Source: Euglena gracilis (Eukaryota). From it: a DNA stretch of 64,000 bases. The first letter of the stretch is position 1; each line of letters begins with the position of its first letter. Both the position numbers and the translations under genes were made by a program. This document shows, one piece after another, positions 30,883 through 64,000 of this stretch. The notes beneath the pieces are model-generated. The model made no database searches. It was not told the DNA's origin and was given only the letters and a program-made list of their open reading frames with translations. Location: contig CP154954.1 in NCBI GenBank assembly GCA_039621445.1, forward strand, positions 29,211,411 through 29,275,410, read 5' to 3'.

Positions 30883-31200
30883 CTCCTCCTTCTCCCGCCT
30901 CTCCCTTTCCTCCCTTTCCCGCCTGTCCCTTTCCTCCGCCGCCTGCCGCTCCTTCTCTTCCCGCTCCTCCCGTTCCCGCTCCCTCTCCCCCTCCTGCTCC
31001 CTCGCCCTCTCCACCTCAATCCGCCTCTCTTCCTCCCTTTCCCTCTCCTCTCGGCGCCTCTCCTCCTCCCGGGCCCTCCGCTGCTGCTCCTCCTGTTCCC
31101 TCTCCCTCTCCCTCTCCCTCTCCCTCTCCCTCTGCTCTTCCCGCCGCCGCTCCGCCTCCCTCTCCGGCTCCGGCGGCGGCTCGGGAACCGGCAGATTATC
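30883..31200 (-). other. Glu/Arg-rich (ER/K single-helix-like) coding-like segment, possible orphan exon
   Basis: Open frame PVPEPPPEPEREAERRREEQRERE...EKEE followed by a GT donor-like site. No partner exons found. Confidence 0.35.
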
Positions 31201-45400: not shown

Positions 45401-46439
45401 TTCCTTTCGGCCCCTTCCCCTGCCTGGCCTCTTTGATACTTTCTCGACCATGGCCGAGAAGGGTATTTGGCGGCAGGGAGTGAACTTTTGTGCAAGCGTC
45501 CTTGTTTGTTTCACAGATCAGGTTTCACCATGTCAAGCGAGACCAATGTTGACCATGTCAAGTGAGAAAATGTTGGGTGTTGTGTTGCTGCCAATACGTT
45601 CTTGAGCTCTGGGCAGAATTTTTTTTGTGCCGCAACCACGGCGGAAAATTTTCTCCTTGCGCCGCGACAACTGCGGCAATGAATTTTGCTTGTGCTGCGA
45701 CAACCGCTGCCAAAAATCTTTCTGTGCGCCACGACCACCGCGGATTTTTTTTTGCGAGGCGGCATGAGCGCTGCAGCGCACTAACAAGTATGTTCATGGT
45801 GACAGGAGAACTTCACAAAGCTGCTACCATTCTATGGGGATGATTTGAAATCGATCAACAGATGCTTCGCCCAAGCCACACTTCAAAATGGTGGGGGGGT
45901 GTCGTGAAGGGGGATTTGGAAGCTGGGTACAGGTACCCTCACCCCCCCCCCATTTGGCCAATGGCCGGGCGAAGTTTGTGATGACATCATCCAAAGAATA
46001 TATCAGGAAAGACCCACTCCGAGGGGGGGCACAGACTTTGTCCGAAGGACAATGTCCGTGCCCCCCCTCCCGGACTCAGGACAAAGTCCGTGTATGGGGG
46101 GGTCTTGCTATAAGTCCGTGTACTGCCCCCCCTCCGACTCAGGACATGGTCGGTGTATCCTAATGAGGAACATCAGTATCGCTCAGGGTACATTTGTCTT
46201 GGTCTTCACAACTCCATGTTGCCCGCACAAGTCGTGAACGTCACTGAGGCTGCCTTGAGATCTTTGCCAACACCCGCAGAGTTGTTGGTAGGGTTGAAGG
46301 TTCGGCACGTCTGACGAGGACCCTGGCCACCAGGGGGGGGGTCCCCATCAACAAGTTTGCGAACCGCGAGGCTTGTCACCACTGATTTGGATGACTACAT
46401 GGAAGCGTTTGCAAAGTGGGTGCTTTCGGTACACACTTT

Positions 46440-46914
46440 GGAGGCTAGGCGCGCCGCTCGGGGGGGTCCCGGCCCCCCCCTCCCCCCCCCCCCCCGCGCG
46501 GCCCCTGCGCGGCCGCCCGCGCGGCCGCTCGCCCCCCCCCTGGACCCCCCCTCCCCCCCTGTGCCTAGCATAGCCAAGAAAAAAAAAATTGGTGAAAAAC
46601 TCGCGATTTTTTGAGGCCCAAAAATGACCAAAAATGACCATTTTCGGACACAAAATGGCAAATTTGGGGGCCGCGCGCTCTGCGCGCAGCCAAAAAAGCA
46701 CTTTTTTGGTCAAAAATGGCCCAAAAATGGCGAAAAATGACCACTTTTTGGACCCGAAGATCACCGATTTTAGGATGCGTTCCGCCCGCCCGCGCGCCCG
46801 CGGCCGCCCCTCGGACCCTCGTACCCCCCCCCCCCCCCCCCCCCCCGCACGGCCGCCACCGCGCCGAATCGCCCCCCCCCAGCCCCCCCCCCCCCCCCGC
46901 TGTGCCTAGCCTCC
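46440..46914. mobile_element. Intact 475-bp copy of the same MITE, inverted, TSD TTT
   Basis: TTT|GGAGGCTAGGC...GCCTAGCCTCC|TTT. The interior is the reverse complement of 37432-37800 plus 43596-43701. Confidence 0.88.
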
Positions 46915-48810
46915 TTTGCATGACACGGAAGCTGAGAAGATTACGACAAAGGCACAAAGGCAGCCTCTGTGTCTACCGCGGTTGTGATGGGGAGCCCACC
47001 CAACTCCTTCCCCCGCGGCCTCACCACTGCGGACCACATGGATGGCAAGCCCTGTGTGCGTTGCCTTTTGCCTCTTGGCAAGCGCGGCTTGTTGCGCCCC
47101 ATAGTGGGCACGCTTGTTTTTTTTTGACGTTGTTTTTTTATTTTTTTTATTTCTAACAATGTTGTTTTAAAACAAAAAAAAACGCCTACTAGGTTTTGCA
47201 AAGAAAATTTTTTGAATGTGTATTTTCGGTCATTTTTGGCAACTTTTGGGTCAAGTTTGCCAAAAACTACCTCCGTAAAAAAATGGAAAAAGTCATAAAA
47301 TTGCATTTTTTGCTTTTTTGGATGTTTTCGACCATTTTTTGGCACTTTTTGAAGGATTCTACTACAAAAAAGGGGTGGCGGACGCCGGTTCTGTCCAAAA
47401 CCCGGCGTTCCGGACGCCGGGTTTTGGACAGAACCGGCGTCCGGAAAACCTGTGGGGGGGGGACGCCAGTTCTGTCCTGAACCCGGCGTCTCAAACGCCG
47501 GTTTAAAGTATGGTTTGGGTGTTTCATAACAATTTTTCTCAATAATGCACACAACGCTCATTTTTAGCGATCGTGTATTCCAAAATTTGACATCCTAATT
47601 TGTGAAATCCCACACCAATCGAAATTTCTCCCCATGAGCTTTCATTTGGTACCCTCAGAAATCAGCCACACTGCACAGCGCCCTGAAAATCGCCGATCGC
47701 ATGTTTCGACCCTTTTCGCAAATTCCAAATTCCACTGTTCACCTGCCATGTTGCCCCTTGATCGATAGCCCTTCTTAAGGGCTTTCAGCAGATGGCCTTG
47801 GATTTCAGCCGTGCTGCATGGTATTCTATTTCAGAAATTCCCCAAATTTGACCAAATGGAAATGGTTGTACCACAAAATACCCCAAATTTTGGTCAAATA
47901 CCCCCCCTAAACTGCTCAGATTTGATTGCCACATGCTAAAACCATTTGGGACACTTTTTGGCACTTTTTATTTTGGGTTCCACTGGACGACGTCTTCCCG
48001 CCCGAACCGGCGTTCTGGACGCCGGTTCGGGCGTTAAGCCACAGCCCCAATACACGGTTTCAGGGACAAAGTCCTCACCCCCCCCCCCCGGACTTTGTCA
48101 CCTCCGAGTCCGTCGTAGGGTACGCCGACTTTGTCCTTAAAACGTTCCAATCAAATTGACCAATAAAATTTGCTAGATGCCCCCCCTATTAGTCACCCCC
48201 CCCCCGAGTTAGTCACCCCCCCCCCGTTAGTCCCCCTTGGCCAAAATCCCCTCCCAAGGGGGTGACTACCAACCCCCCCCCTTCTATTTGTCCCCCCCCT
48301 CTATTTGTCCCCCCCCCCTAATTGGCCAGAGCCCAGGTGGCCAACTAGGGGGGGGGGTGGTTACTCATTTCAAGGGAAAATGTCTTTATTCGGGTGTTTT
48401 AGGGGGTTCGCGACTGTAAAGGACGGGGTCCAGGTGGCCAATTAGGGGGGGGGGTTAGGGTGGTTCAAATCGTTAAAACTGCTCTGAAAGAAAGATAAAA
48501 TCTGTGAAACCTTTCCTTTCATTTTCCGTACATGAAAGTTAGGAAACACCCTTACACGCGAAAATCCTAAATGCGATCCGTGGTAGGACCTACCTTGGCC
48601 TCGAATTCCTAAACCCGCTGTGTTGTAATGCCGGTCGGGAGGTGTGGGCCCACCTTGGCCCAAAGCACACAGGTCCCGGAAGGAGAAATATCGAAACTGT
48701 TTGGATTGTGGAGAGAGGGTCAGCGTCACATGCAGGCGTGCAGGCCGTTGCTCTGAACCACAATCCATCGAGCAGAGGCCTGCCTGCAACACGGTGACTG
48801 CAGTATTTGA

Positions 48811-49280
48811 GGTATTGGAACCTGTTGGTCGTATTGAGACTGGTGTCTTGAACCCTGGTGATGAGTAACTTTCACACCCAACAGCCTGACCACTGAAGGC
48901 AAGTCTGAGGAGATGCACCACAAGGCTCTGGTGAGCGAGGCTATCCCTGGCGACAACCTTGGCTTCAACGTGAAGTCTGTCAAGAATATTCGCCATGGTT
49001 ATGTGGCCTCGAACGCCAAGAACGATCCCGCCAAGGAGGCTGCTGACTTCACTGCCCAGGTAAGCCTCTCTTCAATGTTTTTCTGTCTGGCTTCATTGTT
49101 TCTTGTCTGGCTTCGTAAATGTTTCCGGTGGGTTCCATCTTGTGCAACAGTGGGACAAATCGGCCATTTTGTTCCTCTTCACATTCCTGTTTCTTCAGGT
49201 CATCATTCTGAACCGTCAGATTGGCAACGGTCATGCCCCTGTGCTGCACTGCCACATTGCCTACAAGTTCACCACCATCA
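48811..49280 (+). pseudogene. tef1: EF-1alpha pseudogene fragment with retained intron 49060-49198
   Basis: [68 protein letters not shown]. Contains a stop, frameshifts and deletions; GTAAG...TTCAG intron. Confidence 0.92.
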
Positions 49281-50833
49281 GGAACAATCAGGATTTGCTG
49301 ATGGAATTCCCAGAGGCGTTTTGTTCCCCTCCCAGAATGTCCCGTTTCAGCCCCCCCCCCAAACCAAGTCCCGTTTTTGGTTGGATGTCCTGTTCCCACG
49401 GAAACAGACATTCAGTTAGTGTGTTCACCAAAAAAAAATATTTGCGTATCATGTGTATCACAAAAAAAAATTTGTGTATCACCTATGTTCACCAAAAAAA
49501 AAATTGTGTTCACCAATGTTCACCAAAAAAAAAATTTGTGTTCACCTGTGTTCGCCAAAAGATCGTCCGAGTTTAAGTAAAGTACACCAACTTTTAGAAA
49601 TGTTTACATTCACAAAAGTTTGACGTTTCAGTTCACAAAAAATATTTTCACCTGCGTTCACCAAAAAAAAAATTTGTGTTCACGTGTGTTCACCAAAAAA
49701 AAATTGTGTATCACCTGTGTTCACCAAAAAAAATTTGTGTTCACAATCGGATTTGTGAACACACTGAATGAATGTCTGCACGGAAAGCCCCATTTTTGCC
49801 CCCCAACCTCGTTTTTTTCCCTCCCAGACTACCCCTAACTCCCCCCGGGGGGTTAGGGGTAACCCCCCCCTAATTGTCCCCCCCCAAATGGCCAAAAGGG
49901 GGGTCCAGGCCGCCCGGAGGGCGGCCAAATAGAGGGGGGGGGTTGGTAATCACTTTTTATTTTGTACCTTGCGCTTTTAACCTCCCCCTGTATAAAACTA
50001 TGTTTTTCTGATGCTATGGAAGTGAGGGGGTCGACGAAAGCAATTCAGGGCGCACGCTCAAAAGTCCTGACCCCGCAAGCTTTGTGCGTGGGCTGTGATG
50101 GCGTGGTTGTGCCACGCTCGGGCGTGAGCGACGGTCACGCGCTGCAAACACCCCAACAGGATGTTTTTGAGAATCAACACGCAGGAGTAGGCCTTTTGGC
50201 CCCAGGGTAAGTGGTCAGTGGCAGTGAGCTGAGGGGAATGTAAGTATAGCTTCTCTCTGACGCCCTCGTGTGGTGTTGAAACCGTGTTTAGGCCGATTTC
50301 GAGACTTTAAAAGTTTTAAATCTTCGCCAAAACACGGTTTCAAACCAAGAACAGTGTTTTGGGCCAAGGTTTTAGGGGGGCCTGGGGGCGACCACGGCGC
50401 CTTCAGCGCCGCGGTCCCCGCCCCCAGGCTCCCCCTAGCACTTGGCCCAAACACAGTTCTTGTCACATGTCGACTGTCGGGGGGCGTCCGACAGTCAAAA
50501 TGGCAGGGCGGAAGCTTTTGAAAACACGGAATTTTTCATTCCGCGCAGAACGCGCGATCTATAGGAAAAGCCTAATTTGAGGTTCCAATTCAGCACAATT
50601 TGCTTCCGCAGACTTTTGTGGGTTTCTTTGTTGCATACAATTGAGAATTGAAGTCCTCAAGAATTATTTCATTGAAGAATTGTCATTTTTGAGAATTTCA
50701 AGTTCAAAGGTCAGGTCCCACCTTTCCTCATTCACGGTGTGTCATTGTTGCCTTTTGACCACCATTTCAGTGAACAAAACACCACCCTTATCCATTCTCA
50801 ATGTTTTGCATGCCGGAAGAAAGGGGGAGTGAA

Positions 50834-53800
50834 ATGGCCTCATGGGGATCAAAGTTTGGAGAAGCATTTTCATTGGAGCGGAATTTTGATTTTGTACAAG
50901 ATTTCCACGAAAAAGCTAATTCGATCCTACGCACCCCCCTCTGGTCGGGGGGTATACCAGTGGGCGAAACGGGGGGTGGCCTGAGCCCTCCACCACCCGG
51001 AAAAACACTGGGCCCTGGCCAGGGAACGGCAGCCCCAGGGGTGGGTGACGGGCAGGAGTCAGCCGGCCAGGGGGCTGGGGTTTTCTGTCCGACACCCGCA
51101 GGGGGGGCCCGGGGTAGACATGGTACGCAGAGGAGTTTTTGCCAACCCTGTTGACAAAAAAAATTTCAGCCCAGAAAATACGGACAATTTTGATGGCACA
51201 GCCAGCATTAATCTTGCTGAAGATTTAAACATGATTACAGAGACAGGTTCTGCTAGTCATACCAACAGAATCTGTGGAAATGTTGGAAGTTGCAGCCCTC
51301 AGCTAAACATGGTTAGCAAAGGCAGCTTCGCCAGCTCTGTTGGTGAAGAATTTTCGAAATCGGCAAACCTGAATTCTTCTGAATCTGTGGAAATCAGCAA
51401 TTTTCAATCACAGTCTGGTTCTGATACGTGTTCAGAAATTTCAAACTCAGACTTTTTCAGGTGGGAACCCAGAAAATGTGTTTGGCATTAACATGATAAC
51501 GGCCAGTCCCCATGAATCACAGGGGGGGATGAAAATCAGCTGGTGCAATGGACGGGTTCACCCCCCCAGTATCAAAGCGACAGTGAAATTGACAGTGACA
51601 GGGGGTCTGGACTCAGCCAGTTTGAAGAAACATAACAACTTTTGGTGGCTGCAGGTTGGATACCCCCCAGGTTTCAGATTTTTGGTCCAAATCAGTTTCC
51701 AAATTTTGGAGCCGAAATACCCCAGATTGAGGGGGTAACTCCAATTTTATTGTTGGAAGACAGGGGGACAGCCAGCCACAGCGAAATAACTGTCGATGGA
51801 CAGACATTTTTTTCAGAATCAACCAGAATGTATTCTGAATCAAAATTTTCTGGGGTGCAATCTGCAAATCTGGGCTGTGGTGCATCATCATCATCGGGGG
51901 TGTTAAATCTGGCAGCATCAAAAACCCAAGTGGAGGAGGACGAAGAAATGGAACCCCAGCCACCTGATTTAGGAGTGGAGGGGGCTGACATTTCAGATTG
52001 GGACGCATGGGATAATTGGGCCCAGGGGGTGGACTGCCAATTAGCTGAGCTGAACCGAAGTTTAACTTACTGGGAAAGTATTATACCCCCCCAGGTGGTT
52101 GTGGAAAATCGGCTGGAAGGTTTTGAGCGAGAATTGGGTGAAAAAAATTCTCGAGCAAAGGCTGAACTTTTACAGTTTATTCAGCAAAATGTGGAACAGC
52201 GAAACACTGAAATTTGCAGCCAGTTTGAACAGCAAAAACAGAAAACTCAGGAGGAAATTCAGCAGTCAGTCAGCCATTTTATTTTCTCTTGTTTGAGTTT
52301 TGAGCAAATTGCAGAGTGAAACATCTGAGGCTTTTCAAAAAAAAAAAAATGAAAAGTTCTTTCTTGAAGACTCTTTCATTTGAAAAGGGCCGGTCCATCA
52401 TGTCCACTATGTGTCCAAGATTCACGGCAGAGCACCACCGTGCCCCCCCCCTCTGCTACAAGCGCAGGGTCCAAATAAAAGCGCACCCCCCCAAGGTTGA
52501 CTTGTTTTTTTTTGAAACAAAAAAAAACATGTTTTTTTTAAAAAAATATGTTTTTTTAAAAAAAACAAAAAAACGTCATGGAGGGTTTGGGGGAAAAATT
52601 TTTTGCAATGTTTTTTTTGGGAAAAAGTGCATTTTTTATCTCTACAACATTCATTTTTTTGGGTTGAAAGCATGATTTTTCGCACCAGAAAACACAGATT
52701 TGGAAATACTTTCACACATTTGAAAAAAAAAAACTTCACAGGGGGTGTTCCCCCCATGACCCCCCTCCCCCAACCCGACCTAAGACCCGTTTCGGCCATT
52801 TTTTTTCTGAAAAACTTGGCCGGTGATGCCTAATTTGACAAAATATTCTGGTAGATTTCCTGATTTTCGTTTGGGGGATTCCTATTTTGGAGCTTTTTCC
52901 CAAAAATTCGTTTTCGGTGATTTCTAATCTGGCCACCGAAAATGTGACCCCCCCCCTCGTGACCCCCCGTGACCCCCCCCCCCTCGTGACCCGAACGACC
53001 CGCGAAAAATTTTCTTCAAAAAATGGTCATTTCGCAAGGAAAAAGGTCAATTTTTGCTTTTTCAAAAAAAACATGTTTTTTTTGCGTTTTTTTTTAAAAA
53101 AAACGTCAACCCTGCCCCCCCCCCCCCCCGCCGCCGCCGAAGGCGGCGGTCCGCTACAAGCGCACCCGTGCTTCTATTAGGGGGGGGGTACCAGTCTTCT
53201 TAGCAAATTGCTCATTGGGGGAGGGGGGCTCATCACAGTGCCAGCAAGGGGGGAATGCGGTGGAAAATATTGCCAACTGCCACAAACAACTTTTGTCAAT
53301 CGAAATTGAAAGACAGGTTGAAGGAAAATCCCAGATTTTTGAGAAATCTGTGAAAGATTACTTGGATGGGCAGTTGAGCGAAATTTTGAAAAGGGAAAAG
53401 GAAAATGAAGCCAGATTTTCAGGTCTTTTTGACCAAGTTGGGATTTGTTCTCGGGCTGTGGGAGAAAACAAATTGGAGTTGCAAAAAGAAATTTCTGCGC
53501 TTCAGAATGCAAACCGTGAGCTGTGCTCTGGGGTAAACCAACGATTCACAGAAATTGCTGCTGGGCTGAAAACTGTTGGGGAGGAGTCTAAGACAAATTT
53601 TGGAACACTAATAAGTGAAATGCAGCAGCGATTTCAGACAGTGAATCAGGAGAGCAAAGCTCTGGGGGACAGATTGGCTGGGATCGAGAAATTTCTGGGC
53701 AGCCAGGAGGTAGGTGCCTTGGGACAAAGTTGTTGAAATGATGGGGAAAACAGAAGAAACGATACAAATTCAGGTTCGGAGGGAAATGGCAGCTCAGGTC

Positions 53801-54262
53801 AGAAAAATGATGGAAATCATGATGACCCAAATGATGGAGGAAAAAATGAGACAAGTGCAAAAAGAAGAACATTTTGACAAGCTGCGAAATGACATGGAAA
53901 ATTGTATGAAACAGCAGTTTTGTGCGATTTTGGGCAAAATTCAAACAGATTTTTCAAAGGAAAAAAGCCATAGGGAGGTTGTCCAAAATCTGTGCAACAA
54001 TTTTGAGGCAAGGTTGAAGGCCATTGAAGGGAGGGTGCAACAAATTTTGACTGAAACGGCCCAGCCCAAGGCATCTGCGGTTACACAGCCCAAGCCAGTT
54101 TTTAAGCCGAATTCTGGTTTTGTTGGAATTAAGGGAGTGAAGCCGGTTCAGCCAATTGAAATCTGGGATCTTAATCTGGGATTAGAAGGGGGCCCAGATT
54201 TAGGGGATGGATCATTGATGGTGGGCCAGGTGAGTATCAATGCCATAGGGGGGGGCATATGA
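50834..54262 (+). pseudogene. Long N-terminal region of the retrotransposon ORF1 (Ser/acidic low-complexity, then coiled coil), fragmented
   Basis: Chain of same-strand ORF pieces (50834 MASWGSKF..., 51045-51491, 51642-52271, 53197-53736, 53714-54262) joined by frameshifts, several at homopolymers. Q/E/K heptad-like segments such as LELQKEISALQNANRELCSGVNQRF. Removing 52272-53196 restores the frame (QQSV|FLANCS). Confidence 0.65.
52272..53191. mobile_element. Non-coding insertion (composite MITE-like) in ORF1
   Basis: Abrupt switch to homopolymer-rich repeat sequence. CAGTC occurs on both sides (52267-52271, 53192-53196), and excision restores the reading frame. Confidence 0.7.
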
Positions 54263-54272
54263 ACGGTCACCA

Positions 54273-55637
54273 ATGCTCACTGTTGCGTCTGCAGCTACAC
54301 AACATATTTTGCGAAATGTCGCTGTCCCAAAATTTTCAGGTCATTCAAGTGATTGGCTAAACTTCAAGGGTGAGTGGGTGAGATTTATTCGAAAATTCAA
54401 TCAAGTTTCAGAAGCGGATAAATTGGGCCTCCTGGAACTTTGTTTGGATGACTTGGGGAAAAAACAGCTCAATTTGCATTTGGATGAAATGGGGGAGGCA
54501 CTAACTTTCAATGAAGTGTGGGCCAAGTTGGATGCCTGGCACTCGAGAAATGAAGAGTTTGGGGCCAGAAAAAATTTTCGGGATCTCACGTTGTGTCATC
54601 AAGGGAGGGTTACAAGTCGTGATTGGGAAAATTTCAAAGTTGACTTCAAGTTGTGTCGACAAAAAATCAAGGATGCCAGTGAGGGGGAGGTGAAAAGATT
54701 ACTCATCGAAAAAATGCCTCCTTTTATTGTGCATTGGATTACTGATGAGGAAGAACGGATCAAAACCAGCCAACCAACCGTTCGAATGAACTATCCACAG
54801 CCAACCACCACAGCCGTTATGGAAAATTTTGTGATGATTTTCGCTGGGAAGAAACCCACAAGAGTCACAAAATTGAGCGAGACGGATTTCGAAATTGTGT
54901 TGCCGAATGTGCAAAGTTGTGAAACACTCAAAAGTTACAATGGGAAAGAATTTAATGATTCCAATGTTTTGGTTCGGGTTCGAGAAAATGAACCAAATTT
55001 GAGTGTTGAAGACATTTTCCGTCTCGTGACTTCAAAATTGGCACTCAGAGATCGGCAAGACTTAATGCTAAACCCCAATCACAGCCAAACCTCATACAGA
55101 CGTTCTCGATCGGTGGGGGCGGAGAACAAAGGGGGGAAATCCAACAGTCGGGAGGGTTCACCCTCAAAGAAACGTTCTTTTTCTGGAAAGCAGGTGGCAT
55201 CTCCAACATCTTTTACACCCAAGTCCACAAGTTCCGACTTGCCCAATGTTTCAAATGGTTCTGTTCCGATTTCCTCTGAAAGTCATACTCAAAATCTTAC
55301 ACAAAATGCAGAACCTCCAAAATCTGTGCCAAATGCCAATGGTGGAGTTTGGGTTCAAGCACCACCAAGATCGTCTCCATGGCCAACTTGGCAACCCCAA
55401 AATCAAAACCAAAACTCTTGGAAAGGCCAAAGTTTCAAGGGTGCTCAAAATTATCAAGGCCAAGGACGATATGGGGGAAGGGGGTCCAGCCAATCGAATG
55501 GAAATTGGAATCAACAATCTTCCCAAAAAGGAAAGGGCAAAGGCAAAGGCCAAGGGAAAGATTCTTCCAAAGGCAACGGTTGGAAGGGAGGGGGGTACAA
55601 TGCAAACCGAAATGTTGCACCCCCAGTCCGTCTTTAG
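54273..55637 (+). CDS. gag: Gag-like protein: capsid-like region, RRM-like insert, G/K/Q/N-rich basic tail
   Basis: VPKFSGHSSDWLNFKGEW...DKLGLLELCL resembles retrotransposon Gag N-termini. It lies directly upstream of pol, and the tail (KGKGKGKGQGK, GRYGGRG) has no CCHC knuckle. Confidence 0.75.
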   Translation: MLTVASAATQHILRNVAVPKFSGHSSDWLNFKGEWVRFIRKFNQVSEADKLGLLELCLDDLGKKQLNLHLDEMGEALTFNEVWAKLDAWHSRNEEFGARKNFRDLTLCHQGRVTSRDWENFKVDFKLCRQKIKDASEGEVKRLLIEKMPPFIVHWITDEEERIKTSQPTVRMNYPQPTTTAVMENFVMIFAGKKPTRVTKLSETDFEIVLPNVQSCETLKSYNGKEFNDSNVLVRVRENEPNLSVEDIFRLVTSKLALRDRQDLMLNPNHSQTSYRRSRSVGAENKGGKSNSREGSPSKKRSFSGKQVASPTSFTPKSTSSDLPNVSNGSVPISSESHTQNLTQNAEPPKSVPNANGGVWVQAPPRSSPWPTWQPQNQNQNSWKGQSFKGAQNYQGQGRYGGRGSSQSNGNWNQQSSQKGKGKGKGQGKDSSKGNGWKGGGYNANRNVAPPVRL

Positions 55638-56072
55638 GGACGCCGGGGTCATGTTTTTGAGGGGTTTACATCCTCGGGCATCAAAAACCCCCACAATATT
55701 TTGCATAACCCAACCACATCTCCATGTGGAGAATGTTACCATGTTGGAGAATGTGTGTCTCTATCTTCCAGTCCCTCTATCTCAGGTTCAAAGTCAACCA
55801 ATCAAGAGTTTGCAATGCCGAAGACAGGCAATGGTGCAACTGAAGACAATTCAATGAATTCATCATCAACAATTGACTCAAGAAGGCAAGTGGCCTCGAG
55901 CCAATGGCAGCCCGTGTCGAGGAAGGGCAAGCCGGGCAAACCGTGGACTCGACCCAAACCGTGGACCAGGTGTGCAAGCCAGGAGAGTGCACGGCCCAGT
56001 TTCAACAATTATTATGGTTGTTTGAGTGGAAGAGGATCCATCAAAGGTGTGGGAAGCAGGAGAATTCCCAAG

Positions 56073-56670
56073 GCGTTGGATTTGTTTTCGGGAAAAGGAT
56101 CTGTGGGGAGGTGTTTGGAGGAAAACGGATACCAGGTGGTATCTTTGGATGTCAACCCAAAATTTCACCCAACCCATATAACGGATATTTTGGAGTGGGA
56201 TTATCGCAAATACCCCCAGGGATATTTTGAAGTTATTGCGGCCGGTGTGCCATGCACGGAGTATAGCCTTGCAAAAACGATAGGGGGTAGGGACATGCAA
56301 ACGGCAGATCGCCTTGTCGAAAAAACTTTGGAGATCGTGGAATATTTTCAACCCAAATTGTGGTGGATTGAAAATCCCCGTACGGGATATTTACCCAAAC
56401 GGCAATGTGTTCGAAATTTGAATTTCATTGATGTTGATTATTGCCAATTTTCTGATTGGGGATACCAAAAACCAACCCGTATTTGGGGGAGTGAGAATCT
56501 CTTAAGTTTGAAGGACAAAGTTTGTGATGGAAAAACCTGCCCCAACATGGTGTTGAAGGAGGGGGGCAGGTGGGCACACAAGGAGCAATTGGGTGGGAGG
56601 CATATGCACACGAGCACACATCAAAAATGGAGAATGCCTCAAAATTTGATTGAATATCTTCTTTCGGCCC
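56073..56670 (+). CDS. DNA (cytosine-5)-methyltransferase domain within pol
   Basis: Motif I ALDLFSGKGS (FxGxG); II VSLDV; III TDILEWD; IV AGVPCTEYS with catalytic PC at 56250-56255; VI WWIENP at 56370-56378; VIII-like YCQFSDWGYQKPTRIW; X-like WRMPQNLIEYL. No stops or frameshifts. Confidence 0.9.
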
Positions 56671-56707
56671 TTGATTTTAAGGAGGAGAAATTTTCTTTCA
56701 AAAGAGA

Positions 56708-57100
56708 GGACTGTGCCGTGAGAAACTCTTTTGTGAAATTGATTGAGGAGAAATTTCAAAGGAGAGCCGAAATGGATTGTTTTGCTTTAATCAAAAATTC
56801 TCAATGTGCTTCTTTTTTGACGAAGGAGGAAAATGCCTTGAGCGTTGATTGGGGGAAGGGGGGCACGGTGTGGTTGAATCCCCCATGGTCGTTATTGCAT
56901 AAGGTGGCAAAAAAGTTGCAAAAAACCCCGTGTGATGCAATTTGCATTGTTCCCGATTGGCAAAGGGGATGGGTGAGACAACTTGTGCGAAAGGCGACAC
57001 AAAAATTGTATTTTCAGCCTGGAACAAAGCTTTTCGAAGTGGATGGGAAACCCATGGGAGGTGTGAAGGGGGGAGTTTGGGCCTTGTTGATAGAGGGTAA
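56708..57100 (+). CDS. Dam/DIRS-type amino (N6-adenine-like) DNA methyltransferase domain within pol
   Basis: MDCFA...N...F....ENALSVDW....VWLNPPWSLL..V..KL.....AICIVPDW...W matches the layout of phage Dam-like and DIRS1 MTase domains. Catalytic NPPW at 56877-56888. Confidence 0.85.
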
Positions 57101-57209
57101 CAAGCCCCCCACTAGCACTAACACGTCTAAAGAACCAAAGGTTGTGCGTTTGAAGTCACGTATGGTGAAGAAAATGTACTCACCCGCAGGGGTGAGCAAA
57201 TTTTCAAAG

Positions 57210-57600
57210 GGTCGGCAACTTTTGATTCGCACAAAGGTGATTTTGGTCAACGGGGAGGAACGGGATATGGATATTTTGGTGGATACGGGGGCGGAAGCAA
57301 ACCTCATAAGGCAAGGATTCGTAAGTCACCTAATGCACTCGGCTGAAAATCCCCTTAAGTTTGAAACGGCTAATGGCCAAGTTTTAAGTGGGGGGACAAG
57401 GTGCACTAAGGTGAGAATGAAGTTGCTTGGGGAGGAGAATAATGGGACACCACCCGAATGTTTTGAGTATGAAGTGGAATTTTACGAAGCAAACATAAAA
57501 GTGGATGCCATTTTGTCATTCCCATGGCTTGCCCAAGCAAAACTTGGAGTTTTTCCACATCACCGAGCTTTGGTTTTGGAAACCCCCGAGCTCACATTTT
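57210..57600 (+). CDS. Retropepsin-like aspartic protease
   Basis: ILVDTGAEANLI (DTG at 57282-57290), flap-like ETANG, and DAILSFPWL (ILG.PWL equivalent). The frame runs into an insertion at 57601. Confidence 0.9.
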
Positions 57601-59405
57601 GGAGCTGGGGTATCTGGCTGGCCGCGGCTAGCCGCGGCTGGCTGGCTGGCAAAAAAAAGGAGGAGGTCTGGCAAGCCATGGCCAGCCACGGCTGGCTGGG
57701 GGACTTAGAGGAGGAGGAGGAGGTCTGGCTGGATTCAGTTTTGATGATCTGAAAGAGGAGGAGGCTGGCTGGCAGCGATGGGCGGCGCTGGCGCCAAAAA
57801 TTTTTTCGCGACACGGGCAATTCTTGATTCTGAGTGGTTTCTGCACAAAATGTCAGACTGCAGTGCGAAGTGATTTCACCTGGGCAGAGTAGCTCCTTTG
57901 ATACATCTATGATTCCCTACGTCTGGTGCTGCTCCACTTCCCCCCATTCGCTTCTGGTCATTATTCTACTGTACCTGGTGGCTCCTGGTCCCAGCCCATG
58001 GATTTAGGCGACGCATCTTATTCTTTCCGCACCTGGGACCTCTCACAGGTGTCACAGTATTTTCAGCCCGACAACGTGTCCGTGCCAGTCCACAAGCCCA
58101 CTGTGTCAGTTTGTGCTGTGGCTATTGACCCCTGGCCTGTCCCTGTGGGTCCCCACCGGTGGCCACCGGCAGCTGTGGACCCCACCCAGCTTTTGGATCT
58201 ATTGACCTCTGTCGACATTCATCTGGTGGCCCCCCATGGCCCACGTGCAGATTTAATTGTCACTGCATTTTGTTTTCTTCTTCCCATGGTTCTATGCTTT
58301 GGCCTGCAATTGTTGTTTTTTCGGTTTGGCCCCTTCCCGTGACCCCCCCATTCTGGTACTTTTGACCCTGATTTTGAAATTACCCCCCCCCCCTAGATGT
58401 ATGACCACCCCTCATTTATGACCACCCCCCGGTCACTTGTTGAACACCACTTTACCAATGATCGCCACCTCATTTATGCCTCCCCCCGGTCACAGGTTGC
58501 AGGTTATGGGGGTGTTTTGAACCCCCCGGTCACTGGTTGCAGGAAGTTGGTCATACGGCTAGGGGGGGGGGGTAGTAGGTTGGACCTCTGGCTGACAGTG
58601 GGTTATTTGAAACACTACCCAAGGCCCAGTGCGGTGCCTACCCCCACGGGGGGGGGGGGGGGCAGGTGACCTGAAATGGACGTTGTCAATTTTTTTTGTT
58701 TTGTCCCTTCCAGACCAGCACCAACCCCGATTTTGATCAATAAGCAAAAGCTTGAGCCCGATTTTTTTTTAAAAAAAGGGCGGCTTGGCCCAGGCTTACC
58801 GCGGAAAAAGAAGAGTGCATCCGGCTGCTTCAATTTTACCGCAGCCTGAGTGAAAAAAGTGGGAAATTTTCCGCGTAAGATTCCTAAATTGGGCTCCCAA
58901 AGGTCGTCTGCTCTGTCCTCCACGTGTGCCTTCCCGTTTGCGTCCCACACTGCCCTTACCGAACAGTGCGTATTTGATTTTGTGCAATCTTTTTTCAACC
59001 TCGGGGGCGTGGGGGGGGGCGGAGAGGAACGGGGGGGGCTAAACACAGGGGGAGAAGGACTGGGGGGGTTTGACGGCTGGGTGTGCGGGCGCGGCGGGGG
59101 GGGGGGGGGAGCGGCCTGGGGGGGGCATGCGAGGTCATGCACTAAAGAGGAGGAGGCCCAAGCCACGGCCAGCCGCGGCTAGCCGTGGCTGGTGGCTGGT
59201 AGAAAAGAGGAGGAGGAGGTCTGGCTGGTGGCTGGTCAAAAAAAGAGGAGGAGGAGGTCTGGCCGGTATCTGGCTGGCCGTGGGGACCGCAGCTCCTTTT
59301 GCTCGGTGTGCGTGATTTCAGAAAACGGCGTCATTCAAACACTTCCAAAATTTTGCCCCAAGAGGGGGGCACGGCCCATTTGCACAAATTCGGTTTCCAA
59401 CTACC
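57601..59405. mobile_element. 1.8-kb insertion between protease and RT
   Basis: Ends GGAGCTGG...CCAACTACC (imperfect TIR), flanked by TTT/TTT. Internal GGCTGG/GAGGAG repeats at both ends. Pol-like sequence resumes at LSGFDQ. Confidence 0.75.
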
Positions 59406-61975
59406 TTTGAGTGGGTTTGATCAAAGAAGTCGCTTTTTGGATGACCGAACCCTGAAATTTTTGCACAAAAATTTGAACGTGTCCGAAGCAACCCCCCAAC
59501 CGATCCGACGGATGATAATTGCAAGGGAGGGGGGGGGATGCAAATAATGAAGAGGAGGAAGATAAGGATGAAGGCAAGTTAAGGCTATTAAGGGAGGAAA
59601 TTCAACAAAAGTATGAAGGAACGGTTTTTAGGTCAACGGTATTCCCGGACCCACCCGTAAGGGGACCCTATGGGTATGCTTTTATACCTTTGAAGGAAGG
59701 AGCAACACCAACTCGACAAAAACCATTCTTTATGCACGGCGAACGAAAAGAAGCTTTGGAAAAAATCACTCAAGATTGGATCGATATGAAATTCATCGAG
59801 CCAGCCACAACAAAAAATTCAGAATGGCTCGCACAAACTTTCCCCATGCCCAAAAAGTCTCCCGATTTTCCTTGGAGGGGGGTTGTTGACATGAGGGGAC
59901 CCAATAGCCAAACCCGTAGGTGCAACTACCCTCTTCCGAAAATCGAGGATATCCTGGTGAAGCATGGTGGCAACCAAATGTTCTCCATTTTGGACTTAAA
60001 ACAAGCATTCCACCAACAACCGCTTCACCCGGATAGCCGGCCAATAACTTGCTCCTTCACACCAAAGGGTCTCTACCAATGGAGGGTCAATGTAATGGGG
60101 TTAACTAATGCCTCACCACAATTTCAACAAGTGATGGATGAGAGGCTAGCACCCGTAAGGGACATAGCAACCCCATACATAGATGATATTTTGGTAGGGA
60201 CAACCGTTGGGGAGGGGGAAGACCTCCTAGAGGCGCACAAACGGGATTTGTGCCGAGTTTTGGATTTGTTGGCGAAAGAATTTTTTGTGGTGGACCCAAA
60301 AAAGGCAAAATTGTTCATCAAGGAAGTGGAATTTTGTGGCCAAATTTTGGGTCATGGTGCCCGATGGCCAGCACCGGGCAAACTTCGTGCCATTGAGAAA
60401 TGGGAGGTTCCCACAACCATAACGGCATTAAGAGCTTTCCTTGGTTTTACCAACTACTACAACGCATACATCCATATGTATGCTCAAATTGCCGCACCGT
60501 TGCAAGACAAATTGAAGGTGCCTAGGGATGTTGGTAAAAAGGGAAGCAAAAAAAGAGTTGAATTTGGGGAGGGGGATCTCCAAGCGTTTGAGGAGTTGAA
60601 GAAGCGTTTGTGTTCGGGTTTAATCCTTCAACGTGTAGACCCCGATAAACCCTTCGTATTAAGGGTAGATGCAAGTGGGTACGCCGTGGGGGCTACACTA
60701 GAACAACTTAAGGAAGGAGATGGTAAGCCCACACCCCAAGACGTGATGGATAAGAAAACGGTGCCTATTGCCTTCATGTCCCGAAAACTTACCGTGGGGC
60801 AAAGGAAATGGACCTCCCGTGAGTTGGAGACTTATGCCATAATTTTGGCTCTCCAAAAATGGGAAAGTTGGATCGGTCTTCAACCCGTTTTGGTGTTGAC
60901 TGACCACCAAAGTTTGGAGGCATGGTCAAAAGAGGTGCTCGATACCCCCAGTGGTCCGGTGGGTAGGAGGGCACGATGGCACCAGATTTTTTCAAAATAT
61001 GATTTGACGGTGGGGTACATACCGGGTAAAGAAAACACAATTGCCGACACTTTGAGTCGGTGGGCTTACCCGGCCTCACAAGCATTAAGGGACGTAAGCA
61101 AACACGGTTCAGCCGAGGATAAGGAAGAAATGGAGGAACTCATAAGAGAGGAAAGGGAAGACGAAAGAAATTGTTTGTGGATTAGAGTGAAAAATCAGCC
61201 CAACAACCGTAACACGTGGATTAGAGGGGTGATAACCCGTAGCGGGAAATTGGTGGAACCAAAAGATTCCATGGATAGCATGCAAGAGAGGGGAACCGAG
61301 AGTGTAGTAAATCCGGGAGGCATAGACACCACCGTTGACACACACTCACAAGGGCCCAGGTCAAAGGGGAAAAAGGACAAAAAGTTGAGAGTCACTTTTT
61401 GGGATGGAATGGACCCCGCGGGTAATTTGGTGAGCGACCCAAAACTTTCATCCAATGAGTTACCGAGGGGGGGAACGTGCACGGGAGAAGGTGAGGCCAC
61501 ACCAACTCCAAGTGTAACCCCCAAGGGAACGAAATCGGTTTGGGAGCAAGATTGGGTGGTTGCATACACTTTGTGTCCCACGTGGAAAAAGATTTGGCAA
61601 GCAACACAAGAAAATGGTGAGTGGCCTAAGGGGGTGAAAGTCCACAAAAACCAAATGTTTCGAGGGGAGAAGTTGTGCATTCCGCTAAGTTTTCAAGAAA
61701 TGATCATCCTTGAAAACCACAAATTCCTTGGACACGTTGGTCCTGAAAAGGTGTGGAGGCACGTCAATTTGAGGTATGCATGGGCTGATGAAAAAAAGGC
61801 GAAAATTTTCACGGACAGTTGTAGCAAAAATTGCACAACATGCCAAGCGAGCTCGAGGGGGGAGACATTGAAAGGACCCTTTGACTCAACACCCATACCA
61901 CCCGCACCCATGGTAAGTGTGGCTATCGATCTTTTCAAAATGCCGAAGGTGTTGTACGAGGGGGGGGGAGTATAA
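59406..61975 (+). CDS. pol: Reverse transcriptase, RNase H and integrase zinc-binding domain
   Basis: RT: WRGVVDMRGPN, LDLKQAFHQ, MGLTNASPQFQ, YIDD at 60176-60187. RNase H: VDASGYAVG, ELETYAI, TDHQSL, NTIADTLSR. Integrase HKFLGH...CTTC and first D (AIDLF). Frameshift at the G-run near 59530. Confidence 0.95.
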
Positions 61976-62729
61976 CACAATGGCTGTTTGCGTGGACCGA
62001 CATTCCGGTTGGATTGTAGCCATACCGTGTTTTGATAAAGGATTAACGGGTGCAAAAATGGCCAAGGAAATGCTTAAGTCCCAATGGAAACCCTTTGGAG
62101 TCCCGTCAATAATTTCAAGTGACCAAGGGAGCCATTTTGTCAACACATGGTGGCAAACCATGTGTTCGCTCATGGGAATTCGGCAAGCATTTTCCCAAGC
62201 TTACCACCACCAAGCAAATGGGAGGGTGGAGAGAGCCGGCCAACAAATTATGGAAATCCTCCGAAAGTTGTTTGTGGAGGAAAAAATGAATTGGGTGGAA
62301 GCACTTCCCCAAGTTTTGGATCGCATTCATGACACCAAGGGGGAGAGTGGTTTTAGTCCTCACGAAATTTTGTTTGGAAGGGATAGACCCATTGGTGGAA
62401 TACCCTATCAAACACCGAAGGAGTGTGAGGACGCTCAAAGTTTCTTTCGCCGAATAAAGGAGGTGGATGAGAAAGTTGCTAAGATTCTCAACCACTCACA
62501 TTGGGTGCAAGCGAGTTGGGTCAACCAAGGGAGGAGGGAGTTGGTACCCTTAAAATTGGGAACCCAAGTGTGGTATAGGAGACCCGAAGGATCCGGAGAA
62601 AAATTGGATTCCAGATGGATTGGACCTGGGATTATTAAAGCCCGGGAGGGGGAGAGGAGTTATATTATTGAAATTAAACCCGGGATGGAAATGAAGGTTC
62701 ATCGTAGTTTCCTTAAGGAATACAAATAG
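61917..62729 (+). CDS. Integrase DDE core and GPY/F-like region
   Basis: VCVDRHSGW, SSDQGSHF, YHHQANGRVER, GFSPHEILFG, RWIGPG. Joined to the upstream ORF by a frameshift at the G-run near 61960. Confidence 0.93.
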   Translation: MWLSIFSKCRRCCTRGGEYNTMAVCVDRHSGWIVAIPCFDKGLTGAKMAKEMLKSQWKPFGVPSIISSDQGSHFVNTWWQTMCSLMGIRQAFSQAYHHQANGRVERAGQQIMEILRKLFVEEKMNWVEALPQVLDRIHDTKGESGFSPHEILFGRDRPIGGIPYQTPKECEDAQSFFRRIKEVDEKVAKILNHSHWVQASWVNQGRRELVPLKLGTQVWYRRPEGSGEKLDSRWIGPGIIKAREGERSYIIEIKPGMEMKVHRSFLKEYK

Positions 62730-63017
62730 CCTGAAGTTCTTGGTGAGGGGGTGCCTTTGTTCTTTTTCAAGAGGACCGAAAAAGAAGAGGAAGCAATGCC
62801 TGATGAGTGGGAGGTGGAAAAAATTCTGAACCACCGAAAGAAGGGGGGAACCTGGGAATTCCTCACGAGATGGGTTGGTTACAACGAGGGGGAGGAAACC
62901 TGGGAGCCGGTGGGGAATTTCATACACCGATTTAGTGAGGAGTTGGTGAGGTATTGCACGAAGAAAAACCTAGGGGTCGATTTGATGTCCGAATTGAAAA
63001 AATCTTTGAAACCCTAG
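62730..63017 (+). CDS. Integrase C-terminal chromodomain
   Basis: EWEVEKILNHR....WEFLTRWVGYNEGEETWEPVGNF is a canonical chromodomain with cage aromatics. In frame with integrase, after a single TAG at 62727-62729. Confidence 0.92.
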   Translation, partial: PEVLGEGVPLFFFKRTEKEEEAMPDEWEVEKILNHRKKGGTWEFLTRWVGYNEGEETWEPVGNFIHRFSEELVRYCTKKNLGVDLMSELKKSLKP

Positions 63018-64000
63018 TGAGCCGAAAGTTGAAGGCTCGGTTCATTTTGCTTTTTTTTTAATCGGGGAGCCCAAATGTTTGAGGCTCTTGCTTTGAATTG
63101 GGCCAAGTGCTGTTTCGGCAAGTTATTTGTGTGCTTGTGCATTGCTTATGTGCATCATACCTTTTGTTTTTGACTCCATGATTCTCATATGTTTTGATTT
63201 TTCGAGCATGCGATGAATTTGATTTCTCTCTCTCTCTCTCCTTCTCTCTCCATGCATATTTTGTTCTTGCTCTTCTCTTTCGCTTTGCTCTCACAGGTTT
63301 TGAGGACTTGGAGGCTCCAAGCACACCCAAGGGAGCCCCAAGGGAAAAGTGCGAGCGCACCACCGCAGGAAGGAGGCGAGCATCCTACGCAAGCAAGGAG
63401 ACGAGACAAGGAGACGAGACAAGGAGACGAGACAAGGAGATGAGATGAGGAGACGAGACGAGGAGATGAAGCCTTTTTACCCAATCAACCGAATACACCA
63501 CCACCCAACTTGTCCATAGCCCAGCCCCGTTGGGGCTTGCCTCACTATAAACGGCCCCATCACCCGCTACCCGAGCCCCGAACCCCACTGCCTATATTCC
63601 TCACCCCAACCTGACCTCACCTTCCCATACCGTGAATGGAAAGGGGGACCGAAGGATTTGGATTTTTTTTACCAAGGTCGAGCCATAGCCCCTGTGTAGG
63701 AGAGCGGCCCAGAATGTTTGGAGTTTTGATGATTTGTTTGGATTCCGAGCCATTGGTGGATGTTGCAAGGGGGAAGAAGCCTCACCTTCACCGTGGATGC
63801 GCGGGGGGGGGGGGGGGGCTGAATTTTCTCCGATTTTTGGGTGAGCTCCCTCCAAACGGGTTTCGGTCGAGGGGGGGGGGCGCCCATTCCCATGCCCGTG
63901 TCCAAAGGATTGTGGAATGGAGACCGCCTGATTTTTCAGTTGATGTATGATACACCACCGGACGACCGGAAGAGGTGCTTGCAGACTTGCCGAGCAGTCT

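What the first reader, a model, noticed from the sequence alone, without database searches (positions are those of the whole stretch)
55638..57600. Gypsy chromovirus encoding two DNA methyltransferases of different classes (C5 and NPPW amino-type) in tandem at the pol N-terminus
Seen: one uninterrupted frame carries a C5-MTase (FSGKG, PC, ENP, KPTRIW), then a Dam/DIRS-type MTase (DCFA, NPPW), then the protease. RT, RNase H, DDE integrase and a chromodomain follow downstream. Established: C5-MTases inside retrotransposons were reported for dinoflagellates and charophytes (de Mendoza et al. 2018), and Dam-like domains are typical of tyrosine-recombinase DIRS elements, where they follow RT/RNase H. 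I know of no described DDE-integrase Gypsy element with both classes ahead of the protease, nor one in euglenids. Inference: the element may write both 5mC and 6mA (or 4mC) on its cDNA or insertion site while the chromodomain reads chromatin, forming a self-contained epigenetic writer/reader system.
Basis: partly seen in the sequence, partly recalled or inferred. Interest (0 to 1): 0.93.

Follow-up and report, generated by a model that had tools for sequence, protein, structure and literature searches.

The report
Decayed dual-methyltransferase chromovirus (EpiLTR-type)
This is a broken copy of a Gypsy-type retrotransposon that encodes both a cytosine-C5 and a Dam-like adenine DNA methyltransferase plus a chromodomain, an unusual design that was described for Euglena in a 2026 preprint.

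Summary
ORF 55638-57752 (704 aa) carries a C5-MTase domain (Pfam PF00145, 27.5 bits), a Dam-like domain (PF05869, 47.7 bits) and an aspartic protease. RT, RNase H, DDE integrase and a chromodomain (PF00385, 37.1 bits) lie downstream. Both MTase domains fold with high confidence. Their best structural matches are DNMT3 for one, and PCIF1, T4 Dam and EcoDam for the other.

The architecture belongs to a lineage and is not a chimera. Three metagenome-derived single ORFs (P0224-P0226) read C5-DAM-PR-RT-RH-INT-Chromo. On a C5 tree the window sits in a 9-row clade made only of C5-DAM(-PR) proteins.

This copy is defective. It has a private 1,699-nt repeat insertion between PR and RT, several frameshifts and an in-frame TAG before the chromodomain. 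No LTR pair was found.

The novelty claim fails. bioRxiv 10.64898/2026.05.21.726589 (May 2026) describes "EpiLTRs", LTR elements with DAM, DNMT and a chromodomain, in Euglena gracilis and Cymbomonas.

One result goes beyond that preprint's main text: relatives show C5, DAM and PR in all six orders, in lineage-coherent clades. Enzymatic activity remains untested.

The parts
53098..54262 (+). Probable upstream part of gag. Two ORFs (53098-53736 in frame 1, 53714-54262 in frame 2) are out of frame with each other and with gag in this copy.
   Evidence: ORFs. Contigs of other copies lack 4 nt at 53708 and 1 nt at 54248, which would put all three pieces in one frame (table 4). Pfam gives only weak hits below cut-off.
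54249..55637 (+). gag-like ORF (462 aa, frame 3), ending in TAG at 55635-55637 in the same frame as pol.
   Evidence: No Pfam family. Called gag from its position and its basic, Gly-rich C-terminus, which is inference.
55638..57752 (+). Open 704-aa N-terminal pol ORF: leader, C5-MTase, Dam-like MTase, protease. Its last ~50 codons run into the inserted repeat.
   Evidence: tblastn of P0001 aa 124-627 matches 56067-57599 at 61% identity.
56070..56672 (+). C5 cytosine DNA methyltransferase domain (aa ~145-345) with a short target-recognition region.
   Evidence: PF00145, 27.5 bits. AF2 pLDDT 94.9. Foldseek best match DNMT3B 6u90_A, E 2.3e-10, TMq 0.57. Profile against PDB gives DNMT1, E 2.3e-5. 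The catalytic Cys and the ENP Glu are invariant in 65 sequences.
56685..57122 (+). Dam-like (DIRS-type) N6-adenine methyltransferase domain (aa ~350-495) with DCFA and NPPW motifs, about 5 residues after the C5 domain.
   Evidence: PF05869, 47.7 bits. AF2 pLDDT 89.8. VIA-align: PCIF1 Z 10.8, T4 Dam 1q0s Z 9.6 (rmsd 2.4 over 104 residues), EcoDam 2ore Z 9.3. An NPP[WFYC]-type motif is present in 37 of 42 related DAM domains.
57135..57597 (+). Retropepsin-like aspartic protease (DTGA active-site motif).
   Evidence: PF13975 and PF13650 hits below cut-off. phmmer matches to the PR of relatives, e.g. P0001 at 2e-51.
57598..59296 (.). 1,699-nt insertion private to this copy. It is a very high-copy repeat with G/C homopolymer runs and ~110-nt imperfect terminal direct repeats. 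It is not an intron.
   Evidence: The joint 57597->59297 is present in the DNA run X1 (2 contigs) as well as in X15, X16 and X20 (table 5). Terminal repeats 57621-57732 and 59144-59263. Depth peaks at 58138-58504 (table 2). 1699 mod 3 = 1, which carries frame 3 into frame 1.
59297..59529 (+). PR-RT linker of pol, in frame 1 in this copy.
   Evidence: P0001 aa 622-705 aligns to 59284-59529, E 6e-11. Other copies lack 1 nt at 59529 (X1, 6 contigs), which would continue into frame 2.
59519..61975 (+). RT (about 59870-60346), RNase H (about 60575-61000) and integrase zinc-binding domain (about 61679-61852), in frame 2.
   Evidence: RVT_1 67.4 bits, RT_RNaseH 83.3 bits, Integrase_H2C2 23 bits, the last below its cut-off of 25.5.
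61917..62729 (+). DDE integrase core and C-terminal part, in frame 3, ending in an in-frame TAG at 62727-62729.
   Evidence: rve PF00665, 46.5 bits. Frame change near 61960: other copies lack 1 nt there (X1 5 contigs, X15, X16). P0050 and P0093 align straight through the stop.
62808..62939 (+). Chromodomain at the C-terminus of pol. pol ends at TAG 63015-63017.
   Evidence: PF00385, E 2.9e-9, 37.1 bits, cut-off 25.1. Translation.

Best explanation
Window ~53.1-63.0 kb holds a decayed copy of a Ty3/Gypsy chromovirus of the dual-methyltransferase ('EpiLTR') kind. In intact relatives one pol ORF reads C5-MTase, Dam-like MTase, protease, RT, RNase H, DDE integrase, chromodomain. This much is shown: both MTase domains are real, keep their catalytic motifs, fold as a DNMT-like domain and a Dam/N6-adenine-MTase-like Rossmann domain, and are inherited as a lineage trait under protein-level constraint. 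The rest is inferred. The two domains lie about 5 residues apart, so they are probably made as one bifunctional C5-DAM protein at the N-terminus of Gag-Pol and released by the element's protease. This protein would mark the element's own cDNA or new insertion with 5mC and 6mA, while the integrase chromodomain steers integration to marked chromatin. New copies would then match or exploit the host's methylome. This copy cannot do that. A 1,699-nt repeat splits PR from RT, frames shift near 59529 and 61960 and in gag, and a TAG cuts off the chromodomain.
For: Pfam domains above cut-off for C5, Dam, RT, RNase H, rve and Chromo. AF2 pLDDT 94.9 and 89.8. Foldseek: 294 PDB matches with E <= 0.001 for the C5 model, led by DNMT3B, DNMT3A and DNMT3C. 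VIA-align for the DAM model: PCIF1 Z 10.8, ErmE 9.7, T4 Dam 9.6, EcoDam 9.3. Family support: 82 proteins with E <= 0.001 among 2,163 candidates of 387-1232 aa, and 31 among 1,931 candidates of 1233-3520 aa. P0224, P0225 and P0226 are single ORFs with C5-DAM-PR-RT-RH-INT-CHR and 62-63% identity over the MTase region. In the C5 tree of 138 rows the window lies in a 9-row clade (SH-aLRT 96) holding only C5-DAM or C5-DAM-PR proteins. Catalytic residues are kept: the PC Cys and the ENP Glu are invariant in 65 aligned sequences of 38-61% identity; PC occurs in 176 of 181 C5 domains and ENx in 174 of 181; an NPP[WFYC]-type motif occurs in 37 of 42 DAM domains. Decay of this copy: the joint skipping 57598-59296 is present in a DNA run and three others, and single-base differences at the frame changes are seen in other copies. 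Literature: the EpiLTR description and higher 6mA on DAM-LTRs in E. gracilis.
Against: No enzymatic activity is shown for either domain. The preprint reports that eukaryotic DAMs expressed in dam- E. coli did not raise 6mA. The DAM model's best structural match is an RNA cap adenosine methyltransferase, and only 5 Foldseek matches reach E <= 0.001. No LTR pair was found in the window, so the element's ends are undefined. dN/dS could not be computed: the 6 metagenome loci fetched are only 26-53% identical. The protease and Integrase_H2C2 Pfam scores are below cut-off. Some single-base frameshifts lie in homopolymer runs and could be assembly errors. The host organism is coded, so a euglenid origin is unverified.
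Confidence: 0.85

Rival explanations
1. The juxtaposition is an accident: a nested insertion, an assembly chimera or a one-off capture in this copy only.
For: The genome is repeat-rich and this very copy carries a nested 1.7-kb insertion. The preprint itself warns of nested insertions and assembly artefacts among Euglena DAM-LTRs.
Against: The same order appears in uninterrupted single ORFs from independent metagenome contigs: P0001-P0003 and P0224-P0227. The window's C5 and DAM domains each fall in clades made of C5-DAM(-PR) proteins. The C5 and DAM domains lie about 5 residues apart in one frame.
Confidence: 0.03
2. The domains are active but do not write dsDNA marks. The Dam-like domain, and perhaps the C5 domain, would modify the element's RNA or the RNA:DNA replication intermediate, for example to evade sensing or editing.
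For: The best structural matches of the DAM model are PCIF1 (RNA cap m6Am), Erm and KsgA/DIMT1 rRNA adenine methyltransferases, ranked with T4 Dam and EcoDam. The E. coli dsDNA assay in the preprint was negative, and its authors raise a DNA-RNA hybrid substrate.
Against: By sequence the domain matches the DNA Dam family PF05869 above cut-off. T4 Dam aligns with the lowest rmsd (2.4 A). According to the preprint, DAM-LTR insertions carry more 6mA in genomic DNA. The C5 domain matches DNA DNMT1 and DNMT3, not RNA m5C enzymes.
Confidence: 0.15
3. The MTase domains are catalytically inert passengers or structural/binding modules, for example SAM or DNA binders that tether the preintegration complex.
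For: No activity has been shown for any DIRS-type or LTR-type DAM. The C5 domain is short (~200 aa) with a reduced target-recognition region.
Against: Catalytic residues, not just the fold, are kept across sequences of 38-61% identity: Cys and Glu are invariant in 65, and the NPP motif is present in 37 of 42. That is hard to explain without catalysis.
Confidence: 0.1
4. The 704-codon MTase-protease ORF, still open, is a host-domesticated gene and not a transposon remnant.
For: It is the longest intact frame in an otherwise broken element.
Against: It follows gag in the same frame behind a stop and runs into an inserted repeat. It still includes the protease. The whole region has repeat-level depth in a DNA run. 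2.1 kb without a lesion is unremarkable given about 6 lesions over roughly 10 kb.
Confidence: 0.02

Closest known systems
Euglena gracilis EpiLTRs (DAM-LTR subset with DNMT and chromodomain); Fernandez-Moreno et al., bioRxiv 10.64898/2026.05.21.726589
   Same: An LTR/Ty3-type pol with a PF05869-type DAM domain carrying the Asn-Pro-Pro pocket, a C5 DNMT domain and a chromodomain in one element. The DAM domain is short, a beta-sheet flanked by helices (paper text).
   Different: The preprint's main text gives no domain order for the Euglena elements and mentions neither the protease nor metagenomic relatives. Its figures and supplements were not seen. I could not verify that the window is E. gracilis or that its DNMT is sister to DNMT4. 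This copy is defective.
Cymbomonas tetramitiformis EpiLTR (same preprint)
   Same: A chromovirus with both DAM and DNMT. The preprint says its DNMT groups with the Euglena one.
   Different: There the DNMT is appended to the 3' end of pol; here both MTases precede the protease. Two relatives found here, P0253 and P0254, do have C5 after the integrase.
KnitGypsy-Dnmt3 of Klebsormidium nitens, and SymbioLINE-Dnmt and SymbioDIRS-Dnmt3 of Symbiodinium (de Mendoza et al. 2018, PMC5890265)
   Same: Retrotransposon pol or ORF1 encoding a C5 DNMT with conserved catalytic residues (passages read).
   Different: Those elements carry a DNMT only, with no Dam-like domain. According to the 2026 preprint, their DNMT (DNMT3 or a lineage-specific type) is a separate acquisition.
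DIRS retrotransposons with a Dam-like 'MT' domain (Goodwin and Poulter 2004, cited in PMC5890265)
   Same: The same Dam-like PF05869-type domain with an NPP motif.
   Different: DIRS elements use a tyrosine recombinase. This element has a DDE integrase (rve, 46.5 bits) plus a protease and a chromodomain.

Membership tests
EpiLTR (dual-methyltransferase LTR retrotransposon, 2026 preprint) | DAM (PF05869-type) domain with an Asn-Pro-Pro catalytic triplet | tested here: met
   PF05869, 47.7 bits against a cut-off of 28.1. NPPW is in the translation. The fold is ranked with T4 Dam and EcoDam.
EpiLTR (dual-methyltransferase LTR retrotransposon, 2026 preprint) | C5 DNMT domain in the same element | tested here: met
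   PF00145, 27.5 bits against a cut-off of 22. DNMT3-like fold, E 2.3e-10. The catalytic Cys and Glu are present.
EpiLTR (dual-methyltransferase LTR retrotransposon, 2026 preprint) | Chromodomain in the same element | tested here: met
   PF00385, 37.1 bits. In this copy it lies behind an in-frame TAG. It is contiguous with pol in P0224-P0226.
EpiLTR (dual-methyltransferase LTR retrotransposon, 2026 preprint) | DNMT module sister to the DNMT4 clade | not tested
   No DNMT4 reference sequences were available. PDB sequence and fold searches return DNMT1 and DNMT3 only, which does not address this feature.
EpiLTR (dual-methyltransferase LTR retrotransposon, 2026 preprint) | Host is Euglena gracilis (or Cymbomonas) | not testable with these tools
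   No genome is held. Organism names are coded. No Rfam marker was found.
Chromovirus (Ty3/Gypsy LTR retrotransposon with chromodomain) | pol order PR-RT-RNase H-DDE integrase with a C-terminal chromodomain | tested here: met
Chromovirus (Ty3/Gypsy LTR retrotransposon with chromodomain) | Flanking long terminal repeats | tested here: inconclusive
   No direct-repeat pair links 63000-64000 to 44000-54300. The window ends 983 nt after pol and the 5' side is disrupted by repeats.
DIRS retrotransposons | Tyrosine recombinase in place of a DDE integrase | tested here: not met
   Pfam on the element's main ORFs gives rve and Integrase_H2C2 and no phage-integrase family.

The most novel reading that the evidence does not exclude
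The window's element is one branch of a large C5-MTase-bearing chromovirus superfamily, mostly sampled from the environment. In it the three N-terminal modules (C5-MTase, Dam-like MTase, protease) occur in all six linear orders ahead of RT. Further variants place C5 between RNase H and integrase, or after integrase. Each order forms its own clade. That would mean repeated capture or shuffling of independently folding epigenetic modules within one pol ORF. The 2026 preprint's main text does not state this degree of modular permutation.
Probability: 0.5. Interest if true: 0.55.

Novelty: already known. Interest (0 to 1): 0.35.

Why it matters
Retrotransposons that carry their own 5mC writer, 6mA writer and chromatin reader would show that mobile elements can bring their own epigenetic toolkit instead of only suffering host silencing. 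That idea is now in print as a preprint, so this window adds one defective example. It also adds evidence from metagenome-derived proteins that the design is widespread, under protein-level constraint, and rearranged many times.

Tried and rejected
- **Whole-genome copy survey:** no genome is held.
- **LTR search:** The repeat finder at two stringencies and blastn of 63000-64000 against 44000-54300 found only G/C homopolymer matches.
- **Other copies in the window:** none by tblastn.
- **Intron hypothesis for 57598-59296:** rejected, because the joined form also stands in a DNA run.
- **Programmed readthrough structure after the gag TAG:** the fold of 55626-55725 is no better than shuffles, z = -0.5.
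- **dN/dS:** the metagenome scan gave 6 loci at 26-53% identity, too distant. I did not use these loci further.
- **phmmer of the whole ORF against PDB:** only chance-level hits, E ~0.5.
- **Rfam on the window:** 0 matches.
- **Pfam on ten other long ORFs of the window:** 0 families.
- **DAM tree against C5 tree:** the DAM tree places the window clade next to the PR-DAM-C5 clade (SH-aLRT 94), while the C5 tree does not. The separating C5 branches score only 80-91, so I make no claim of domain exchange.
- **X20 cover:** contigs from the leaf-litter metatranscriptome X20 cover parts of the element at 95-99% identity. This does not show transcription, because DNA can be present in such libraries.
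Full report
**1. Observation**

A stop-to-stop ORF runs from 55638 to 57752 on the + strand (704 aa). Pfam finds three domains in it:
- DNA_methylase PF00145 at aa 175-248, E 2.6e-6, 27.5 bits (cut-off 22).
- Dam PF05869 at aa 366-424, E 1.8e-12, 47.7 bits (cut-off 28.1).
- A retropepsin-like protease at aa 537-594, 23.4 bits, below its cut-off.

Downstream, ORF 59519-61975 carries RVT_1 (67.4 bits), RT_RNaseH (83.3 bits) and Integrase_H2C2 (23 bits, below cut-off). ORF 61917-62729 carries rve (46.5 bits). Pfam did not find the chromodomain in that ORF. It lies just behind an in-frame TAG (62727-62729), at about 62808-62939: PF00385, E 2.9e-9, 37.1 bits. A 462-aa gag-like ORF (54249-55637) precedes pol in the same frame and ends in TAG.

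**2. State of this copy**

Relatives align to the window in pieces. P0001 aa 124-627 matches 56067-57599 (frame 3). Its aa 622-705 match 59284-59529 (frame 1). Its aa 721-1007 match 59588-60448 (frame 2, 85% identity).

I laid contigs of four public runs on 53000-64000 at 90% likeness or more. A joint from 57597 to 59297, skipping 1,699 nt, appears in all four runs, including the DNA run X1 (2 contigs). Copies without this stretch therefore exist as DNA. The stretch is an insertion private to this copy and not an intron. Its length (1699 mod 3 = 1) accounts for the shift from frame 3 to frame 1.

The inserted piece has the highest depth in the region. It also has G/C homopolymer runs and imperfect terminal direct repeats of about 110 nt.

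Other copies lack one base at 59529 (X1, 6 contigs) and one at 61960 (X1 5 contigs, X15, X16), which is where this copy changes frame. They also lack 1 nt at 54248 and 4 nt at 53708. That would join the ORFs at 53098-54262 to gag. Some of these single-base differences lie in homopolymer runs and could be assembly errors.

No LTR pair was found. The window ends 983 nt after pol. No second copy lies in the window.

**3. Are the methyltransferase domains real?**

- **C5 domain.** AlphaFold2 on an alignment of the window's C5 region with 64 relatives gives mean pLDDT 94.9. Foldseek against the PDB returns DNMT3B, DNMT3A and DNMT3C catalytic domains first (6u90_A, E 2.3e-10, TMq 0.57), then M.HaeIII, with 294 matches at E <= 0.001. 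A profile of the alignment finds DNMT1 by sequence (E 2.3e-5).
- **Dam-like domain.** The model from 29 sequences has pLDDT 89.8. Foldseek gives only 5 matches at E <= 0.001, led by the cap-specific adenosine methyltransferase PCIF1 and by KsgA. The wider VIA-align search ranks PCIF1 (Z 10.8), ErmE (9.7), T4 Dam (9.6, rmsd 2.4 over 104 residues) and EcoDam (9.3) at the top. The fold is that of N6-adenine methyltransferases, but fold alone does not say whether the substrate is DNA or RNA.
- **Catalytic residues.** Across the 65 aligned C5 sequences (38-61% identical to the window), the PC cysteine, the ENP glutamate and a Thr of the KPTRIW motif are invariant. The motif's Arg, two further Cys and a His in the short target-recognition region are nearly invariant. 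In a wider census, PC is present in 176 of 181 C5 domains and ENx in 174 of 181. An NPP[WFYC]-type motif is present in 37 of 42 DAM domains: 22 NPPW, 10 NPPF, 4 NPPY, 1 NPPC and 5 with none.

**4. Is the architecture a family trait?**

A word-indexed search with residues 140-480 found 82 proteins (E <= 0.001) among 2,163 candidates of 387-1232 aa. Many are pre-annotated with PF00145, PF05869, RT, RNase H, rve and Chromo. An exhaustive HMMER search with all 704 residues found 3,819 representatives at E <= 0.001 and 271 at E <= 1e-30. That query includes the protease, so not all of these are MTase hits. A search for longer proteins found 31.

I mapped domains with phmmer, using the window's own domain segments as queries:
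- 42 of the 223 proteins first fetched carry both C5 and DAM.
- 15 of the 31 long proteins carry both.
- P0224, P0225 and P0226 are single ORFs of 1,763-1,911 aa that read C5-DAM-PR-RT-RH-INT-Chromo, with 62-63% identity to the window over the MTase region.

I built a quick maximum-likelihood tree of 138 C5 domains, leaving out segments shorter than 170 aa. The window falls in a 9-row clade (SH-aLRT 96) that holds only C5-DAM or C5-DAM-PR proteins. In a tree of 33 DAM domains it again groups with C5-DAM-PR proteins. This rules out a one-off chimera.

dN/dS could not be computed. The only DNA loci retrieved are 26-53% identical.

**5. Module order in relatives**

Relatives show the three N-terminal modules in all six orders. 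Domain E-values are 5e-6 or better, and Pfam gives partial independent support.

| Module order | Examples |
|---|---|
| C5-DAM-PR | window, P0001, P0224-P0227 |
| PR-DAM-C5 | P0010, P0229, P0230, P0232 |
| C5-PR-DAM | P0041, P0241, P0245 |
| DAM-C5-PR | P0023, P0026, P0233 |
| DAM-PR-C5 | P0040, P0085, P0243 |
| PR-C5-DAM | P0090 only (622 aa) |

Other forms lack DAM or place C5 elsewhere:
- C5-PR-RT-RH-INT-Chromo without DAM (8 of the 31 long proteins).
- PR-C5-RT without DAM.
- C5 between RNase H and integrase (P0050, P0250).
- C5 after integrase (P0253, P0254).

Architecture labels cluster on the C5 tree: 60 changes against a shuffled mean of 77.5, reached in 0 of 200 shuffles. These proteins are gene calls on unnamed metagenome contigs, so their hosts and LTRs are unknown.

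**6. Comparison with what is known**

Five literature searches found one paper that describes this design: Fernandez-Moreno et al., bioRxiv 10.64898/2026.05.21.726589, 22 May 2026. I read the abstract, all of Results, and passages of the Discussion and Methods. I could not see its figures or supplements.

The preprint reports the following:
- DAM domains occur in non-DIRS LTR retrotransposons in several lineages.
- 'EpiLTRs' carry DAM, DNMT and a chromodomain in Cymbomonas tetramitiformis (DNMT at the 3' end of pol) and in Euglena gracilis ('structurally distinct configuration').
- The EpiLTR DNMT is sister to DNMT4.
- DAM-LTRs carry more 6mA in E. gracilis.
- Eukaryotic DAMs did not raise 6mA in dam- E. 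coli.

Its main text does not give the Euglena domain order, and it does not mention the protease or metagenomes. De Mendoza et al. 2018 (PMC5890265, passages read) covers DNMT-only elements.

The finding is a correct rediscovery.

**7. Mechanism**

Shown: the domains, their folds, conservation of catalytic residues, lineage inheritance, and the decay of this copy.

Inferred:
- The C5 and DAM domains, about 5 residues apart, act as one bifunctional protein cleaved from Gag-Pol.
- They mark the element's cDNA or new insertions.
- The chromodomain steers integration, as I recall for chromoviruses; I did not test this here.
- pol is expressed by readthrough of the gag TAG. This is weak: no significant structure follows the stop, and P0093 fuses gag and pol without a stop.

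The main open alternative is an RNA or hybrid substrate.

**8. Verdict**

The element is a defective member of an already described kind. CpG observed/expected is 0.6 across the element and the rest of the window alike. The host could not be named.

Noticed in passing
window 57598-59296: The inserted 1.7-kb piece belongs to a very abundant repeat: the depth peak in DNA run X1 lies at 58138-58504. It has long G/C homopolymer runs, ~110-nt imperfect terminal direct repeats and 3 nt shared at the joint. Similar G/C-run and 'TAATTG'-type repeats recur elsewhere in the window, for example at 32258-32350, 36718-36797, 37088-37180 and 49863-49942.
   Followed up: partly
window 55934 -> 63294: Contigs of runs X15 and X16 (guessed to be RNA), but not of DNA run X1, join 55934 to 63294. 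They skip 7,359 nt, which is all of pol from just upstream of the C5 domain, with 5 other letters in between. Depth over gag and the 3' region is also higher than over pol in these runs. This could be a gag-only spliced or deleted form. The sides of the joint are short, 18 and 35 nt.
   Followed up: no
window 55635-55637: gag and pol are in the same frame, separated by a single TAG followed by GGA. This could be readthrough expression or a mutation of this copy. The downstream fold is not better than shuffles. P0093 has gag and pol fused without a stop.
   Followed up: partly
alignment A1 (C5 domain; window aa positions within 56037-56690): One invariant Cys (position 136 of the window segment) plus two Cys and one His that are nearly invariant (positions 163, 168 and 181) lie in and just before the short target-recognition region of the C5 domain. 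They may form a zinc site. I did not check this on the model.
   Followed up: no
proteins P0253, P0254 (JGI metagenomes): Two ~2,200-aa polyproteins carry the related C5 domain after the integrase (RT-RH-INT-C5). This resembles the Cymbomonas arrangement described in the preprint.
   Followed up: no
window 42503-43078: A tandem array of about six overlapping copies with a 77-nt period. There are also repeat clusters at 29970-33610.
   Followed up: no
window 1-52000: Ten ORFs of 220 aa or more outside the element gave no Pfam family at E <= 0.001, and Rfam found no RNA family in the whole window. The window looks largely repeat-derived or non-coding.
   Followed up: partly
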